A stretch of DNA of 64,000 nt from Candidatus Poribacteria bacterium (lineage in GTDB: Bacteria > Poribacteria > WGA-4E > WGA-3G). Below are positions 56,679 to 63,132 of this stretch, piece after piece. Made by a program: the position numbers and the translations under genes. Position 1 is the stretch's first letter. Each line of letters begins with the position of its first letter. The DNA is taken from contig CBDCOJ010000032.1 of the NCBI GenBank assembly GCA_965219695.1, positions 517,747-581,746 of the forward strand. The letters are read 5' to 3'. The notes beneath the pieces are model-generated. The model worked only from the letters and a program-made list of their open reading frames with translations, was not told the origin of the DNA and ran no database searches.

Positions 56679-57026
56679 ATGGCAACTACGGTTCGCTACA
56701 AAGATGGTGTCACAATTTTGGAACCATCAGGTAAAATTATGGGTGCTGGGGTATCCGAACTGAGAGAAGTGATCACAGCAGAGGTAGATGCCTCCGATGT
56801 CCCGAAGATACTTATTGACTTTGAAAAGGTCAATATGATGGATAGTTCCGGTCTGGGAACACTGATGGGGGCACATGTCACTATTACTCGGCAGGGTGGT
56901 AGGGTCGGCGTTCTCAATGTCGGAAAAAATATCAAAAACTTAATTGTGCGGAGTCGGCTTGCAAGTATTTTTGAACACTTCAATACCGAAGATGAAGCTG
57001 TCTCAGCGTTAAGCGGCGATGCCTAA
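56679..57026 (+). CDS. STAS-domain anti-sigma-factor antagonist (SpoIIAA/RsbV-like) #1
   Basis: 115-aa protein with the phospho-Ser motif MMDSSGLGTL. Confidence 0.75.
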   Translation: MATTVRYKDGVTILEPSGKIMGAGVSELREVITAEVDASDVPKILIDFEKVNMMDSSGLGTLMGAHVTITRQGGRVGVLNVGKNIKNLIVRSRLASIFEHFNTEDEAVSALSGDA

Positions 57027-57065
57027 GGCACATTTCATAACCGCAGCAACCTGGAGGCTGCACTA

Positions 57066-57431
57066 ATGGCGATCACTCAATCAGAGCGGGATGGCGTTTT
57101 CATTTTTAAACTTGATGGTAGAATTATCGCATCTGATGTCCAAGACTTAACAGATACCGTTCAAGATACCCTTTCACAGGCAAATGACTCACCGAAACTC
57201 GTTTTTGACTTTAAAGACGTTACCAGCATGGATAGTTCAGGGCTTGGGGCTTTGATGAAAATCTATGCCGATATTCATCCACTCGGTGGAACAATTGCTG
57301 TGATTAATGTTAATAAACATGTCAAAAACCTCATTGTGATGGCAAGACTTATCACTGTCTTCCGGAACTTTGAAAGTGAAGACGAAGCAATCTGGGCATT
57401 ATTGAATCCGCCATCCGAATCGCCACAATAA
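57066..57431 (+). CDS. STAS-domain anti-sigma-factor antagonist #2
   Basis: 121-aa paralog with SMDSSGLGAL. Confidence 0.75.
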   Translation: MAITQSERDGVFIFKLDGRIIASDVQDLTDTVQDTLSQANDSPKLVFDFKDVTSMDSSGLGALMKIYADIHPLGGTIAVINVNKHVKNLIVMARLITVFRNFESEDEAIWALLNPPSESPQ

Positions 57432-57447
57432 TTTGTAAGGCTGTCTC

Positions 57448-58209
57448 ATGATAAAAAATATCCTCGTTTCTATAGGCGATACCGATTACGAAAAAAATGC
57501 CTTTGATTACGCAGGACAATTAGCTGTTCTTTTAGGGACACACCTCTCTTGTGTATTTTTTCAGGATAGTTCCCACGGTGGAAGTGCTGAAGTCGCAGAA
57601 ACGGTGCTGCGTCGAACCGAAAAAGAATGTGCACTTTACGATTTTTTAGATTACCATATTGAAGCTGTCGCAGGAAACCCGCGGCAGATGATTTGTCAAA
57701 AGGCGCATTCTGCCGATTTAGTCGTGGTCGGACTCCCTGAAGATATTAAAACGCGCGGTCTAAAACTCATTCAAAACCAAATTGATGATGTCCTTGCACA
57801 CATTACGAAGCCTATTATCGTCGTCCATGAACAGTGTACCCTATTACGAAAGATTTTAGTTGTTAATCATGGCGATATTTATTCTGACCATGTGCTCTCA
57901 CTTTCAGCAGAAATTGGTGAATTAACTAAATCTGAAATTCTTGGCTTAGCACTTTCAAATACCACCCAAGAAGCAACAGAGATTAAGCAACAAATGGAAG
58001 CTTACCTGCAATTCTACGATGTCCCGACTGAATTTTTGACTGCCCTCGGATTTACAGTAACAAACATCTTGGAAAACGCAGAAGCCAATGACTGTGATTT
58101 AATTGCCCTCAGCGCCAGCCATCACGGGCGATTATACGAGATGGTTTTCCAAAGCACTACACAAACCGTTGTTAAGCTTGCTAATCGTGCCGTTTTGGTC
58201 ACCAAATAA
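57448..58209 (+). CDS. universal stress protein family (tandem Usp)
   Basis: 253-aa protein with two UspA-like alpha/beta halves. Confidence 0.55.
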   Translation: MIKNILVSIGDTDYEKNAFDYAGQLAVLLGTHLSCVFFQDSSHGGSAEVAETVLRRTEKECALYDFLDYHIEAVAGNPRQMICQKAHSADLVVVGLPEDIKTRGLKLIQNQIDDVLAHITKPIIVVHEQCTLLRKILVVNHGDIYSDHVLSLSAEIGELTKSEILGLALSNTTQEATEIKQQMEAYLQFYDVPTEFLTALGFTVTNILENAEANDCDLIALSASHHGRLYEMVFQSTTQTVVKLANRAVLVTK

Positions 58210-58221
58210 TGGGGAACTCAC

Positions 58222-60498: not shown

Positions 60499-60730
60499 GT
60501 ATATAGTAAATTATGTAAATAAGTTCACAGTTCAGGTGTAAAGTTAATTGTAGAATCCACTATAATATACCAACACCTCAGATAGCACAAAAACCAATTG
60601 ATAAATTTCGATCTAAATTACTTCTTTGTCAATATCCCTTACTCTACAATATATAATTGCTAATGGTGATTTTCTATTGATCTGATCTCTGAATGAAATG
60701 TGTCTTCGTTAATCCCAAAGCTGTTCTGTC

Positions 60731-61147
60731 ATGTTCTTCGGCATAGGAGCAATTGTGTTGGCTACAGAAAATCCGCAACCGATTTTGGTCATAGAAGACC
60801 ACGCGTTAAATCGAAAAGTTGCCCGCATTGTTCTACAATCTGAAGGTTATGAGGTCATTGAAGCGATTGACGCAGCAGAGGCATTAGCGTGTTTAGAAAA
60901 AGTTTTCCCCGCACTCATCCTAATGGATATTGCACTACCGGGACAGAGTGGCGAGGAACTAACCCGACAAATCAAAGCTAATCCTGATTTGTCGAACATA
61001 CCGATTATTGCATTAACCGCCGCAGCAATGTCCGGGGACCGTGAAAGACTCCTTAGAGCAGGATGTGATGATTACCTCAGCAAGCCAATTGATACCCAAT
61101 TACTTTTAGAACGCGTAGCACACCATCTCAAAGGAAATCCAACATGA
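60731..61147 (+). CDS. single-domain response regulator (CheY-like receiver)
   Basis: D-D-K receiver motifs (ILVIEDH, ILMDIALPG, K in LSKP). The start may instead be GTG 60755, which follows an aggag RBS. Confidence 0.8.
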   Translation: MFFGIGAIVLATENPQPILVIEDHALNRKVARIVLQSEGYEVIEAIDAAEALACLEKVFPALILMDIALPGQSGEELTRQIKANPDLSNIPIIALTAAAMSGDRERLLRAGCDDYLSKPIDTQLLLERVAHHLKGNPT

Positions 61148-62304
61148 ACACGGAAGGATCAGCAAGAATTCTTGTTGTTGATGATGAACCGCGCAATGTC
61201 AAAATTCTTCAGATCCAGCTGCAGGCACGCGGTTACGCTGTTCTCACTGCTGGTGACGGTGCCGAGGCTTTAGAAGTTGTCAGGCATGAAACACCTGATC
61301 TGATCTTGTTAGATATTAATATGCCAAAAGTAGACGGATATGAAGTTTTAGCAAAGGTCCGGGCAGATGAGACGACAGAATTTATCCCTATCATCATGAT
61401 AACAGCCCTGCGCGATACAGAAGAAAACCGAATTAAGGCGGTTGAAGCTGGAGCAGACGACTTTATAGAAAAGCCTTTCAATAGTTTTGAAGTGTTAGCT
61501 CGGATTAAATCACTCTTACGCATTAAGCATTATCACGATACCCTTGAGCAATACAACGCGCGCTTAGAGACAGAACTGCAAATGGCTCGGAGTGTTCAAG
61601 AAATAATAATTCCTCCGAACGGTTCTCAAGATTTAGGAGGATTCCGCACAGCCTCATACTGTGCTCCTGCAACCGCAGTCGGTGGAGATTTTTTTGATTT
61701 ATGGGAGATTGATGAAAATCGGATAGGTGTCTTAATTTCTGATGTGATGGGGCACGGGGCATCTGCTGCCCTTGTTACTGTCTTTATCAAAACGGTTTTA
61801 ACAGAACATCGGGAACATATAGATGATAACCCTGCACAACTTCTACACGTACTCAACGAACGTTTTAACGATATAATTAGTTCCCGTCTATTTATGTTTG
61901 CCACTGCATTCTGTGGCATCTTTGATCTGGGAAAAAAACAACTCGTCTGTGCAAATGCCGGACATCCATTTCCGTTTTTGCAACATAGGTCACAACTCAA
62001 ATGTGAAGCGATTACCGATAAACATACCGGAAACGGTTTGGGTATTCGCAGAGAATCTGTATACGAAAATTGCTATTATCCATTTGATTCCGAAAGCAGA
62101 GTCTTTCTCTATACAGATGGTGTCTATGAAGTCAAAAATCCACAAGGTGAAGAATTTTCTGTAGAACGACTCCAAAACGTGGTGGCAAATTGTGACGAAG
62201 AATCACCTGCGCGGCTTATCCAGTGTGTTTCTGATACTATCTCGGAATTTACAGATGCTCGTCCTAATGAGGATGACTTAACACTTGTTGCGATTCAGGG
62301 TTAA
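61144..62304 (+). CDS. response regulator receiver fused to PP2C/SpoIIE-type serine phosphatase (RsbU-like)
   Basis: Receiver domain (ILVVDDEP...LLDINMPKVDG), a helical linker and the PP2C motifs GGDFFD and DVMGHG. Translationally coupled to the upstream response regulator (atga). Confidence 0.85.
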   Translation: MNTEGSARILVVDDEPRNVKILQIQLQARGYAVLTAGDGAEALEVVRHETPDLILLDINMPKVDGYEVLAKVRADETTEFIPIIMITALRDTEENRIKAVEAGADDFIEKPFNSFEVLARIKSLLRIKHYHDTLEQYNARLETELQMARSVQEIIIPPNGSQDLGGFRTASYCAPATAVGGDFFDLWEIDENRIGVLISDVMGHGASAALVTVFIKTVLTEHREHIDDNPAQLLHVLNERFNDIISSRLFMFATAFCGIFDLGKKQLVCANAGHPFPFLQHRSQLKCEAITDKHTGNGLGIRRESVYENCYYPFDSESRVFLYTDGVYEVKNPQGEEFSVERLQNVVANCDEESPARLIQCVSDTISEFTDARPNEDDLTLVAIQG

Positions 62305-62747
62305 CTTTCGTCTGTATTAGCATCTCGATAAAAAATAGCGGTTACATCTGTTCCGCCAGCCGCATTCGCTTCCAATTTATGAATATCAGTGAGACATTTT
62401 ATTAGATACAGACCATGTCCGCCTTCACCCGCAGGAGAGCGCTTCTCTTGAATCTCTGCCAATCTCTCAGGTGTTATCCAATCCTGTGTGTTACTCCCAC
62501 CTTTATCTCGGACGACAATTTCAAGTGTGCGTGTATTCACAGAAATTTGCAATTGAATTCCACTTGATATACACGTGGACCCGTGATAAACTGCGTTGCT
62601 ACAGATTTCGTCAAGGGCAAGCTGAACATCTGCTATCCGCTTCTTGGAAAATCTCAAGGTTTCACATAACTTCCCGATAAACGCACGTACCGATTCAAGG
62701 TAATACACATCGCTCGGCATCTTCAACTCAATATGAGATTTCTCCAT
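62301..62747 (-). CDS. anti-sigma regulatory factor, Ser/Thr kinase (RsbW/SpoIIAB-like, HATPase_c_2)
   Basis: 148-aa GHKL-type protein with N-box ELCSNAVYHG and G-box GHGLYLI. Convergent with the RR-PP2C gene; the two stop codons overlap. Confidence 0.8.
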   Translation of the reverse strand: MEKSHIELKMPSDVYYLESVRAFIGKLCETLRFSKKRIADVQLALDEICSNAVYHGSTCISSGIQLQISVNTRTLEIVVRDKGGSNTQDWITPERLAEIQEKRSPAGEGGHGLYLIKCLTDIHKLEANAAGGTDVTAIFYRDANTDES

Positions 62748-62778
62748 GGGCTAACACCAGTTTTTCTTATGACATTGA

Positions 62779-63132
62779 TTAAAAAGCTGCAATTGCACTC
62801 TTCTCTGATTCATAAATTTCAACAACACTGGAAGCCCCTATAAGATTAAAGGTTCGGGTGAGGGGTGAAGCTAAATTGCATAGTTTGAGGTCACCACCGT
62901 TTTGGCGAAGTCGTTTTGCTATACCCACTAACGTCCCTACTGCGGTACTGTTGATGTGGTTAACTTCACTAAAATTCACTACAACCTTATTCACCTTTTC
63001 CATCAAAAGATCTTCCAGAACTTTCCGCAAATCCGAGGCAGCGTAACTGCTTAGGTCGGTCTTTACATCAATGATTTTGACATCCGCATTCTCCCGAGTG
63101 GTTATTAATTCGGTACCGGTCATAAAAGTCAC
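62779..63132 (-). CDS. STAS-domain anti-sigma-factor antagonist #3 (RsbV-like)
   Basis: 117-aa protein with INSTAVGTLV around the conserved Ser. Lies upstream of the RsbW-like gene on the same strand. Confidence 0.8.
   Translation of the reverse strand: MTFMTGTELITTRENADVKIIDVKTDLSSYAASDLRKVLEDLLMEKVNKVVVNFSEVNHINSTAVGTLVGIAKRLRQNGGDLKLCNLASPLTRTFNLIGASSVVEIYESEKSAIAAF

What the first reader, a model, noticed from the sequence alone, without database searches (positions are those of the whole stretch)
56679..63132. Partner-switching signalling island: 3 STAS antagonists, RsbW-like kinase, receiver-PP2C phosphatase, CheY-like RR, multi-PAS HK and Usp, but no sigma factor
A plus-strand operon (STAS, STAS, Usp, PAS-HK, RR, RR-PP2C) converges on a minus-strand operon (STAS, RsbW-like) so that the stop codons overlap at 62301-62304. 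All components of an RsbU/V/W-type module are present, and the input is via phosphorelay: the histidine kinase phosphorylates the receiver-PP2C. The usual target, a sigma-B-type factor, is absent. The RsbW-like kinase may therefore control a non-sigma output, or a sigma factor encoded elsewhere. Three antagonist paralogs suggest branched or graded signalling.
Basis: partly seen in the sequence, partly recalled or inferred. Interest (0 to 1): 0.6.

Follow-up and report, generated by a model that had tools for sequence, protein, structure and literature searches.

The report
Sigma-less partner-switch signalling cluster in Poribacteria
This is a real, intact and well conserved bacterial signalling cluster of a well-known type (a phosphorylation-driven "partner switch" fed by a two-component sensor) in sponge-associated Poribacteria; having no sigma factor gene next to it is true but has many published precedents, so it is a fairly ordinary new example whose output is still unknown.

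Summary
All eight genes exist with the stated domains: three single-domain STAS proteins, a tandem Usp, a soluble 4xPAS histidine kinase, a REC-only regulator, a REC-PP2C phosphatase and an RsbW-like Ser kinase. The convergent stop codons overlap at 62301-62304. Every residue needed for phospho-signalling is at least 95% conserved in about 30 orthologues. The window is from Candidatus Poribacteria. The cluster sits in conserved core chromosome (RadC-TrmH-IolD on one side, rpsA-metK-ahcY on the other), so it is not an island. No sigma-70-family gene lies within 10 kb in any of 34 related loci. HK to REC-PP2C to STAS-P is a proven route (B. cereus RsbK/RsbY, M. smegmatis RsfS/RsfR). rsbV-rsbW pairs without a nearby or identifiable sigma are well documented (Rhodobacter RbaVWY, Nostoc HcyA-D, Bordetella, Streptomyces BldG, Vibrio SypE/SypA, Anabaena HenR/All4160). 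STAS2 has decayed in two lineages. STAS1, STAS3 and Usp evolve about 3 times more slowly than the kinase, which weakly hints that STAS proteins are the output hub. The whole-genome sigma inventory could not be done. Verdict: new member of a known kind, modest interest.

The parts
56593..56622 (+). Sigma-70-type promoter of the STAS1-STAS2-Usp-HK unit (TTGACA, 18 nt, TATAAT)
   Evidence: Perfect 12 of 12 consensus match. The -35 TTGAC is invariant and the -10 TA(T/A)AAT is conserved in 26 species while the flanking sequence diverges; a conserved AGGGAG RBS follows.
56679..57026 (+). STAS1: single-domain STAS protein (anti-sigma-antagonist superfamily), 115 aa
   Evidence: Pfam STAS 2.6e-17. TIGR00377 scores 62.6 bits, above its 53.45 cutoff. 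The MDSSGLG phospho-Ser motif aligns with SpoIIAA and RsbV and is invariant in 29 orthologues. Slowest-evolving gene of the cluster (distance 0.086).
57066..57431 (+). STAS2: paralogue of STAS1 (44% identity), 121 aa
   Evidence: Pfam STAS 2.6e-15. DSSG motif conserved. Evolves about 2.5 times faster than STAS1. Frameshifted in L010 and a remnant in L032.
57448..58209 (+). Tandem universal stress protein (two Usp domains), 253 aa
   Evidence: Pfam Usp 1.4e-20, two stretches. 88-99% identical across species; distance 0.098. In the alignment to the ATP-binding Usp MJ0577, the three Gly of the G-x2-G-x9-G-S/T motif are replaced by S, H and Q. Gaps of 16 nt to STAS2 and 12 nt to HK.
58222..60498 (+). 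Soluble sensor histidine kinase: four PAS domains, HisKA and HATPase_c; not a hybrid kinase
   Evidence: Pfam and NCBIfam. H-box SHELRTPLN conserved in 32 orthologues. No TM-like segment and no LOV NCRF motif.
60499..60754 (.). Variable HK-RR spacer, the place where the cluster can be split
   Evidence: Length is 22-426 nt between species. L016 carries a 4.6-kb R-M-like insert here and L009 has an inversion breakpoint here. No convincing conserved promoter.
60731..61147 (+). Single-domain (CheY-like) response regulator; the real start is probably GTG 60755 or TTG 60758
   Evidence: Response_reg 1.1e-26. Acceptor motif LILMDIALPG, plus ALTA and SKPID, conserved in 33 orthologues. Conserved AGGAG before the GTG/TTG. 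ATGA overlap with the next gene.
61144..62304 (+). REC-PP2C: receiver domain fused to a SpoIIE/PPM-type Ser phosphatase, 386 aa
   Evidence: Response_reg 3e-30 and SpoIIE 1.7e-41. Full-length match to the P. aeruginosa REC-PP2C structure 3EQ2 (E 2e-31) and to the NCBIfam Pseudomonas RssB model (below cutoff). Motifs DDEP, LLDINMP, MITA, EKPF, GGDFFD, SDVMGHG, NAGH, YTDG and DDLT are conserved in 34 orthologues.
62301..62747 (-). RsbW-like GHKL Ser kinase, a possible anti-sigma or switch kinase, 148 aa
   Evidence: HATPase_c_2 3.7e-19. Best NCBIfam match is RsbW at 54 bits, below the 145-bit cutoff. Only PDB match is B. subtilis RsbW 6M36, E 9e-10. N-box (E, N, H), G1 (D-x-G) and G2 (G-H-G-L) are conserved. 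Isolated lineage: 2, 16 and 652 representatives at E up to 1e-30, 1e-10 and 1e-3 among 1.84 billion.
62779..63123 (-). STAS3: the STAS protein co-operonic with the kinase, 114 aa from ATG 63123 (the longest ORF runs from GTG 63132)
   Evidence: STAS 1.5e-18. TIGR00377 scores 61.9 bits, above cutoff. HINSTAVG with Ser at the SpoIIAA-S58 position, invariant in 34 orthologues. The 114-aa form is the called gene on record. 31 nt upstream of rsbW.
63161..63189 (-). Promoter-like site of the STAS3-RsbW unit (TTGATT, 17 nt, TAAAAT)
   Evidence: Both hexamers are conserved in five species, including the more divergent L005, while the sequence further upstream diverges.

Best explanation
This is a chromosomal, Poribacteria-wide, fully cytoplasmic partner-switching module gated by a two-component system. 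Its output is not encoded in the locus.

Core mechanism (about 0.75 likely):
1. The soluble 4xPAS histidine kinase senses an intracellular cue and autophosphorylates on the H-box His.
2. It passes the phosphoryl group to the receiver of the REC-PP2C. The translationally coupled single-domain RR probably acts as a competing sink or modulator.
3. Receiver phosphorylation changes PP2C activity. The sign is unknown.
4. The PP2C removes the phosphate that the RsbW-like Ser kinase puts on the conserved Ser of STAS3, and probably of STAS1.
5. Unphosphorylated STAS binds the kinase. Phosphorylated STAS is released.

Output (inferred, about 0.45 likely): the very slowly evolving STAS proteins (STAS1, STAS3), not a locally encoded sigma factor, carry the signal to a non-sigma partner encoded elsewhere, as with RbaV, SypA, HsbA and All4160. 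The equally conserved, non-ATP-type tandem Usp acts as an accessory or scaffold of the kinase or of the STAS proteins.

Shown here: gene content, intact motifs, conservation, and absence of a linked sigma.
Inferred: every protein-protein contact, the phosphotransfer route, and the output.
For: - Domains and motifs are intact and at least 95% conserved in about 30 orthologues.
- The cluster is conserved down to genomes where the kinase is only 50-58% identical.
- Coupling is tight: 12-39 nt gaps in STAS1-STAS2-Usp-HK, ATGA overlap between RR and REC-PP2C, 31 nt between STAS3 and rsbW, and conserved promoters.
- In L009 an inversion separates the HK block from the rest but leaves RR-RECPP2C next to RsbW-STAS3.
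- No sigma-70-family gene lies within 10 kb in 34 loci.
- HK to REC-PP2C to STAS-P is demonstrated for RsbK/RsbY (PMC9912610) and RsfS/RsfR (PMC10950880).
- STAS-as-output is demonstrated or argued for RbaV (PMC3999984), HsbA (PMC6482189), All4160 (bioRxiv 10.64898/2026.04.08.717354) and SypA (PMC10120452).
- STAS1, Usp and STAS3 evolve about 3 times more slowly than the kinase and phosphatase (distances 0.086, 0.098 and 0.114 against 0.299 and 0.267). This fits STAS proteins having more interaction partners than the kinase.
- All eight proteins are soluble.
Against: - No interaction, phosphorylation or phenotype data exist.
- The RsbW-like protein's best named relatives are anti-sigma kinases, so a distal sigma target is equally natural.
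- General synteny is high in these genomes: the housekeeping flanks are conserved too. Conserved adjacency alone therefore does not prove functional coupling.
- The rate argument is weak, because small proteins can be slow for other reasons.
- The mirror-tree signal is modest and its pairs are not independent.
- The Usp role is a guess. No paper links Usp to partner switching.
Confidence: 0.45

Rival explanations
1. Canonical anti-sigma switch with an unlinked sigma. The RsbW-like protein sequesters a sigma factor encoded elsewhere in the genome (group-3 SigB/F-like, or another type). Dephospho-STAS3 releases it. STAS1 and STAS2 are extra antagonists that integrate other inputs, as RsfA, RsfB and RsbW3 do for M. 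smegmatis SigF.
For: - The best NCBIfam and only PDB relatives of the kinase are RsbW and SpoIIAB.
- The STAS3-rsbW two-gene operon is the classical rsbV-rsbW arrangement.
- Unlinked rsbVW pairs that still act on sigma factors are known (background section of PMC3999984; multiple antagonists in PMC10950880 and PMC7693655).
Against: - No sigma gene lies within 10 kb in 34 loci, and none of group 3 lies in the 64-kb window.
- All RsbW and SpoIIAB equivalog scores are far below cutoff (54 against 145, 34 against 135).
- The kinase evolves about 3 times faster than its STAS partners.
- In several comparable sigma-less systems no sigma partner was found despite direct tests (PMC3999984, PMC9127174).
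- Whether Poribacteria encode any group-3 sigma could not be checked here.
Confidence: 0.4
2. Two unrelated modules that are neighbours only because the whole region is syntenic. One is a PAS-HK/RR/REC-PP2C two-component unit with its own STAS and Usp accessories. The other is an independent STAS3-RsbW pair served by a different phosphatase elsewhere.
For: - Flanking housekeeping genes are just as syntenic as the cluster.
- The two units are on opposite strands with separate promoters.
- STAS3 is only 24-25% identical to STAS1 and STAS2.
Against: - A PP2C of the SpoIIE family needs a phospho-STAS substrate and therefore a Ser kinase. The only such kinase in the 64-kb window is the adjacent RsbW-like gene.
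- The L009 inversion keeps RR-RECPP2C with RsbW-STAS3.
- The 4-nt convergent overlap is kept in most orthologues (coordinates).
- The partial co-variation of RsbW with REC-PP2C, STAS1 and STAS3 is positive (0.36-0.39).
Confidence: 0.1
3. RsbT-like logic. The small kinase is not an anti-sigma factor but a switch kinase held by unphosphorylated STAS proteins, forming a minimal stressosome-like sink. Once released, it binds and activates the PP2C or the HK.
For: - Several STAS proteins per kinase, as in RsbR/RsbS-RsbT.
- The HATPase_c_2 fold is shared by RsbT and RsbW.
Against: - All three STAS proteins are single-domain (114-121 aa) with no RsbR-type sensor domain.
- The PP2C carries a receiver, not the RsbU N-terminal RsbT-binding domain.
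- The named NCBIfam matches are RsbW, RsbA and SpoIIAB, and no RsbT match was reported.
Confidence: 0.05

Closest known systems
Nostoc punctiforme HcyA-D (Npun_F1682-1685; PMC9127174)
   Same: The cluster holds a STAS antagonist, an RsbU-like PP2C, an RsbW-like protein and a multi-sensor (GAF/PAS) histidine kinase. No sigma gene lies in the cluster, and no sigma partner was found by two-hybrid.
   Different: The Hcy kinase is a hybrid HK. The paper describes the phosphatase as RsbU-like and does not mention a receiver domain. The Hcy cluster has one STAS, no Usp and no separate single-domain RR. It is from a different phylum. No sequence-level orthology was tested here.
M. smegmatis RsfS/RsfR with RsfB and RsbW1 (PMC10950880), and B. 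cereus RsbK/RsbY with RsbV and RsbW (PMC9912610, PMC4574943)
   Same: A histidine kinase controls a receiver-PP2C that dephosphorylates a phospho-STAS antagonist of an RsbW-type kinase. Several antagonists per kinase occur in M. smegmatis.
   Different: Both act on a known sigma (SigF, SigB), and in B. cereus sigB is in the same cluster. Their kinases are CHASE3 or hybrid types, whereas this one is a soluble 4xPAS non-hybrid HK. RsbM and Bc1009 accessories are absent here. The sign of receiver control differs between the two models and is unknown here.
Rhodobacter capsulatus RbaV/RbaW/RbaY (PMC3999984)
   Same: A two-gene rsbV-rsbW-like operon with no sigma gene nearby, plus an RsbY-like phosphatase. 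No cognate sigma was found by mutagenesis or two-hybrid, and the STAS protein was proposed as the output.
   Different: rbaY is unlinked there. The locus has no HK, Usp or extra STAS genes. A phenotype (gene transfer agent production, stationary-phase viability) is known there, and none is known here.
Pseudomonas/Shewanella/Vibrio fused regulators HsbR-HsbA, CrsR-CrsA and SypE-SypA (PMC6482189, PMC10120452, PMC8256260), and Pseudomonas RssB-RssC
   Same: Phosphorelay input to a receiver-PP2C that sets the phospho-state of a STAS protein. The STAS protein (HsbA, SypA) has partners other than the kinase. The REC-PP2C here matches the P. aeruginosa REC-PP2C structure 3EQ2 over both domains and the NCBIfam Pseudomonas RssB model.
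   Different: In HsbR, CrsR and SypE the kinase, receiver and phosphatase are one polypeptide, whereas here the kinase is a separate gene on the opposite strand. The RssB model score (128 bits) is far below its cutoff of 700, and the RssC match of STAS2 is marginal (19 against 250).
Anabaena HenR / All4160 / Alr3423 (bioRxiv 10.64898/2026.04.08.717354)
   Same: A SpoIIE-type phosphatase and RsbW-like kinases set the phospho-state of a STAS domain, and the output is not a sigma factor.
   Different: There the STAS domain is fused to a glycosyltransferase, so the output is built in, and the genes are dispersed. Here all STAS proteins are stand-alone and clustered.

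Membership tests
Partner-switching system (RsbV/RsbW/RsbU, SpoIIAA/AB/E type) | Single-domain STAS protein with a phosphorylatable Ser at the SpoIIAA-S58 / RsbV-S56 position | tested here: met
   Pfam STAS for all three. TIGR00377 is above cutoff for all three. Invariant in 27-34 orthologues.
Partner-switching system (RsbV/RsbW/RsbU, SpoIIAA/AB/E type) | Small GHKL Ser kinase (HATPase_c_2) with N-box, G1 and G2 ATP-binding motifs | tested here: met
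   HATPase_c_2 3.7e-19. Aligns to the RsbW structure 6M36. Motifs present and conserved.
Partner-switching system (RsbV/RsbW/RsbU, SpoIIAA/AB/E type) | PPM/PP2C (SpoIIE-family) Ser phosphatase with metal-binding Asp motifs | tested here: met
   SpoIIE 1.7e-41 over 190 of 192 profile positions. GGDFFD, SDVMGHG, YTDG and DDLT conserved.
Partner-switching system (RsbV/RsbW/RsbU, SpoIIAA/AB/E type) | Cognate sigma factor encoded with the module (classical operon rsbV-rsbW-sigB or spoIIAA-AB-sigF) | tested here: not met
   rsbW ends in a convergent stop overlap. The next gene past STAS3 is rpsA. No sigma-70-family ORF within 10 kb in 34 loci. The window holds only an ECF sigma 41 kb away. Whether a sigma is encoded elsewhere in the genome was not testable.
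Partner-switching system (RsbV/RsbW/RsbU, SpoIIAA/AB/E type) | Kinase-STAS binding, STAS phosphorylation and dephosphorylation, and mutually exclusive binding of a second partner | not testable with these tools
   Needs biochemistry or complex modelling. Only single-chain structure prediction is offered.
NCBIfam equivalogs RsbW (NF003144, TIGR01924), SpoIIAB (TIGR01925), SpoIIAA (TIGR02886) | Score at or above the curated equivalog cutoff | tested here: not met
   RsbW 54.3 against 145 and 44.7 against 155. SpoIIAB 33.7 against 135. SpoIIAA 58.8, 60.0 and 52.9 against 114.75. So these are superfamily members, not orthologues of the Bacillus proteins.
Two-component-gated PP2C input (RsbK/RsbY, RsfS/RsfR type) | Receiver domain with acceptor Asp fused N-terminally to the PP2C | tested here: met
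   Response_reg 3e-30 at residues 9-121 and SpoIIE at 191-385. DD, D (LLDINMP), T and K conserved.
Two-component-gated PP2C input (RsbK/RsbY, RsfS/RsfR type) | Cognate histidine kinase encoded nearby with an intact H-box | tested here: met
   HK lies 233 nt upstream of RR-RECPP2C. HisKA 9e-25. SHELRTPLN conserved. Linkage is kept in 31 of 32 loci and loosened in L009 and L016.
Two-component-gated PP2C input (RsbK/RsbY, RsfS/RsfR type) | CHASE3-type and/or hybrid kinase architecture, as in RsbK and RsfS | tested here: not met
   Four PAS domains, with no CHASE3, no HAMP, no C-terminal receiver and no TM segment.
Two-component-gated PP2C input (RsbK/RsbY, RsfS/RsfR type) | Phosphotransfer from the HK to the REC-PP2C, and its effect on phosphatase activity | not testable with these tools
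   Inferred from adjacency only. The effect is reported to reduce phosphatase activity in RsfR (PMC10950880). In B. cereus the RsbK-to-RsbY phosphotransfer activates the SigB response (PMC9912610).
Stressosome (RsbR/RsbS/RsbT) | RsbR-type protein (N-terminal sensor domain plus C-terminal STAS), together with RsbS and RsbT | tested here: not met
   All three STAS proteins are 114-121 aa and single-domain. Only one small kinase is present, and its named matches are RsbW, RsbA and SpoIIAB.
Fused kinase-REC-PP2C regulators (HsbR, CrsR, SypE) | Kinase, receiver and PP2C in one polypeptide | tested here: not met
   REC-PP2C (386 aa) has no HATPase domain. The kinase is a separate 148-aa gene on the opposite strand.

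The most novel reading that the evidence does not exclude
The module has no sigma-factor target at all. The ultra-conserved STAS1, STAS3 and tandem non-ATP Usp would form the output hub of a phylum-specific, self-contained circuit. For example, dephospho-STAS could bind Usp or the PAS-HK, or a metabolic enzyme elsewhere. That would make this a Usp-linked, non-transcriptional partner switch acting as the central stress or host-sensing switch of an uncultivated sponge-symbiont phylum.
Probability: 0.2. Interest if true: 0.55.

Novelty: new member of a known kind. Interest (0 to 1): 0.3.

Why it matters
Poribacteria are uncultivated, widespread sponge symbionts, and almost nothing is known about how they regulate anything. 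This cluster is conserved across the phylum, is driven by a conserved consensus-type promoter, and sits among essential genes. It is therefore a good candidate for a central intracellular stress, redox or energy-state switch. Finding its output would add a data point to the open question of what sigma-less partner switches control. For the general field, though, the logic and the missing sigma both have clear precedents. The value is as a catalogued, well-delimited example with testable parts, not as a new principle.

Tried and rejected
1. **Source contig beyond 64000.** Exact-protein look-ups either failed or returned only short Logan contigs, although a 0.2-1 Mb contig is indexed. I relied instead on the window's own rpsA start at 63830 and on species at 96-98% identity (L002-L004).

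2. **Whole-genome sigma inventory.** Not possible.

3. **Relatives outside Poribacteria with gene context.** The RsbW-like word-index search returned only Poribacteria. The REC-PP2C search listed only its best 120 of 3942 hits, all Poribacteria-like. The exhaustive search gives no context.

4. **Rfam scan of 56000-64000.** Nothing near any gathering score.

5. **'Genomic island' idea.** Rejected, because GC content is unremarkable and the flanks are syntenic.

6. **Mirror-tree co-evolution to assign STAS partners.** The signal is weak and positive for STAS1, STAS3, Usp and REC-PP2C, and absent for STAS2 and RR. The pairs are not independent, so I treat it as inconclusive.

7. **Literature link between Usp and partner switching.** Zero papers.

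8. **Metaproteome link.** The Aplysina aerophoba metaproteome reports 'anti-anti-sigma factor' as its most abundant cluster. No sequences are given, so it cannot be tied to these genes.

9. **Local sigma screen.** Its only positive control was the ECF sigma hitting itself, so sensitivity is limited. The precomputed Pfam calls for L032 and L034 and the Pfam scans of the window are the independent support.

Full report
**1. Observation**

Pfam assigns every domain with strong E-values:
- Three stand-alone STAS proteins: STAS1 56679-57026, STAS2 57066-57431, STAS3 62779-63132 on the minus strand.
- A tandem Usp (57448-58209).
- A histidine kinase with four PAS domains, HisKA and HATPase_c (58222-60498).
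- A receiver-only response regulator (60731-61147).
- A receiver fused to a SpoIIE/PP2C phosphatase (61144-62304).
- A small HATPase_c_2 kinase (62301-62747, minus strand).

NCBIfam places the three STAS proteins above the cutoff of the anti-sigma-antagonist superfamily model. The kinase is closest to RsbW, but far below every equivalog cutoff. TTAA at 62301-62304 holds both convergent stop codons, and ATGA at 61144-61147 couples RR to REC-PP2C.

Two coordinates need correcting:
- STAS3 most likely starts at the ATG at 63123 (114 aa). A conserved RBS sits in front of it, and this is the form on record as a called gene.
- RR probably starts at GTG 60755 or TTG 60758, after a conserved AGGAG.

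**2. Origin and conservation**

The RsbW-like protein finds orthologues in 30 species-representative genomes, all Candidatus Poribacteria, a sponge-associated phylum. A tblastn survey shows the eight genes in the same order and orientation in nearly all of them. The flanks are the same too: RadC, TrmH and IolD on one side, and beyond the window end ribosomal protein S1, MetK, AhcY, a PfkB kinase and dihydrolipoyl dehydrogenase. Genomes in which the kinase is only 50-58% identical still have the full cluster in the same neighbourhood. GC content is unremarkable. This is therefore conserved core chromosome, not an island.

**3. Integrity of the parts**

Across 27-35 orthologues the following are at least 95% conserved (alignments to references):
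- The STAS phospho-Ser motifs (MDSSGLG in STAS1 and STAS2, HINSTAVG in STAS3).
- The kinase N-box, G1 and G2 motifs.
- Both receiver acceptor Asp motifs.
- The PP2C metal-binding motifs (GGDFFD, SDVMGHG, NAGH, YTDG, DDLT).
- The HK H-box (SHELRTPLN).

All eight proteins lack TM-like segments. The one hydrophobic peak, in RR, is the receiver beta-3 strand. The pathway is therefore cytoplasmic. The PAS domains show no LOV motif, and the cue is unknown. In the alignment to MJ0577, the Usp lacks the three glycines of the G-x2-G-x9-G-S/T ATP motif.

**4. Transcription units**

A perfect TTGACA-18-TATAAT promoter at 56593-56622 is conserved in 26 species while its surroundings diverge. A TTGATT-17-TAAAAT site precedes STAS3 and is conserved in five species.

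Gaps inside STAS1-STAS2-Usp-HK are 12-39 nt. The HK-RR spacer behaves differently. It ranges from 22 to 426 nt, carries a 4.6-kb restriction-modification-like insert in L016, and is one breakpoint of an inversion in L009 that moves the STAS1-STAS2-Usp-HK block away while RR-RECPP2C stays beside RsbW-STAS3. Mobile elements also sit between STAS1 and STAS2 (L005) and between STAS3 and rsbW (L011, L014). STAS2 is frameshifted in L010 and reduced to a remnant in L032, so the third antagonist is dispensable.

**5. The sigma question**

It is not met:
- rsbW ends in the convergent overlap.
- The gene starting at 63830 is the rpsA orthologue.
- No sigma-70-family ORF was detected within 10 kb of the cluster in 34 loci, and the precomputed Pfam calls for L032 and L034 agree.
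- In the 64-kb window the only sigma is an ECF type at 14889-15476 with its own zf-HC2 anti-sigma, 41 kb away. Pfam scans of the other ORFs found no sigma-54 or primary sigma.

Whether Poribacteria encode a group-3 sigma elsewhere could not be determined with the remaining caps.

**6. Comparison with what is known**

Histidine kinase to receiver-PP2C to phospho-STAS is an experimentally established input route in B. cereus (RsbK/RsbY; PMC9912610, PMC4574943) and in M. smegmatis (RsfS/RsfR; PMC10950880). In RsfR, Asp phosphorylation lowers phosphatase activity.

Partner switches without a linked or identifiable sigma are also well documented:
- Rhodobacter RbaV/W/Y (PMC3999984).
- Nostoc HcyA-D, a cluster of STAS, PP2C, RsbW-like protein and multi-sensor HK with no sigma partner in two-hybrid tests (PMC9127174).
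- Anabaena HenR/All4160, acting on a biosynthetic enzyme (bioRxiv 10.64898/2026.04.08.717354).
- Pseudomonas HsbR/HsbA and SiaABC (PMC6482189, PMC7647112).
- Vibrio SypE/SypA (PMC10120452; review PMC8256260).

The REC-PP2C here matches the P. aeruginosa REC-PP2C structure 3EQ2 over both domains. The kinase's only PDB relative is B. subtilis RsbW. In an exhaustive search the kinase is an isolated lineage of a huge family, with 2, 16 and 652 representatives at E up to 1e-30, 1e-10 and 1e-3. No searchable paper describes this Poribacteria cluster or links Usp to partner switching.

**7. Mechanism**

I commit to a two-component-gated partner switch (core about 0.75 likely):
1. The PAS-HK senses a cytoplasmic cue.
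2. It phosphorylates the REC-PP2C, with the coupled single-domain RR acting as sink or modulator.
3. The PP2C sets the phospho-state of STAS3, and probably STAS1, against the RsbW-like kinase.

The output is not in the locus. I lean slightly (0.45 against 0.40) towards a non-sigma output carried by the STAS proteins, as opposed to a distal sigma held by the kinase. The reasons are that STAS1, Usp and STAS3 evolve about three times more slowly than the kinase and phosphatase, and that several analogous sigma-less systems work that way. This lean is weak.

The mirror-tree test gave modest positive residual co-variation of the kinase with STAS3 (0.38), STAS1 (0.36), Usp (0.41) and REC-PP2C (0.39), and none with STAS2 (0.09) or RR (-0.12). 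The pairs are not independent, so I treat it as exploratory. The Usp may scaffold the kinase, by analogy with E. coli UspC and KdpD. That analogy is from my own knowledge and was not tested here.

**8. Verdict**

The feature is a new, well-delimited member of a known kind of system. Its headline oddity, the missing sigma factor, is real locally but is commonplace for this system type. Interest is 0.3. The most novel reading not excluded is a Usp-linked, non-transcriptional partner switch acting as the central switch of the phylum (probability about 0.2, interest about 0.55 if true).

Noticed in passing
window 63390-63691: A roughly 300-nt insertion in the rpsA-STAS3 intergenic region that is absent from the four closest species. 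It is built of nested inverted repeats, including a perfect 14-bp-stem hairpin at 63590-63621, and may be flanked by a TTTAC duplication. It is single-copy in the window. There is a sub-threshold Rfam COG2827 RNA hit at 63588-63623. It could be a MITE-like element.
   Followed up: partly
window 63692-63829 and 63830-64000; L003 6747-9218: The rpsA promoter and leader are 100% identical over about 150 nt in five species. The S1 protein is unusually long (823 aa in L003), with highly acidic, repeat-like N- and C-terminal tails.
   Followed up: no
window 14889-21538: An ECF sigma factor (14889-15476), a zf-HC2 anti-sigma (15656-16645) and a 1570-aa TPR-rich protein (16826-21538) lie in a row. This is the only sigma factor in the window.
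   Followed up: partly
window 32149-35225 (minus strand): A histidine kinase (33741-35225, only HATPase_c detected) overlaps a receiver-PglZ protein (32149-33756). This is an uncommon response-regulator output domain.
   Followed up: no
window 43371-45494 and 49406-51382: A leucine-rich-repeat protein with a C-terminal dockerin domain (a eukaryote-like repeat protein, typical of sponge symbionts) and a 658-aa Hanks-type Ser/Thr kinase.
   Followed up: no
L011 8763-9872; L014 8705-9838; L005 15770-17426; L016 12464-16334; L009 whole locus: Mobile or foreign DNA has landed inside orthologous clusters. A TnpB-like gene sits between STAS3 and rsbW in two species. An IS607-like element sits between STAS1 and STAS2. 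A restriction-modification-like cassette sits in the HK-RR gap. An inversion has a breakpoint in that same gap.
   Followed up: partly
L010 15276-15693; L032 15284-16082; L029 1470-1892: STAS2 is frameshifted in L010 and reduced to a 36-aa remnant in L032. L029 carries an extra STAS1-like paralogue (52% identity) about 8 kb away.
   Followed up: partly
window 1257-2225, 2230-3396, 3695-5341: Three consecutive plus-strand ORFs (322, 388 and 548 aa) with no Pfam match at E up to 1e-3 or 1e-5.
   Followed up: no
literature (PMC6081418): In the Aplysina aerophoba sponge metaproteome the most abundant protein cluster (12 proteins) was annotated 'anti-anti-sigma factor'. A. aerophoba is a classic Poribacteria host, but no sequences are given, so the link to STAS1 or STAS3 could not be tested.
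   Followed up: partly
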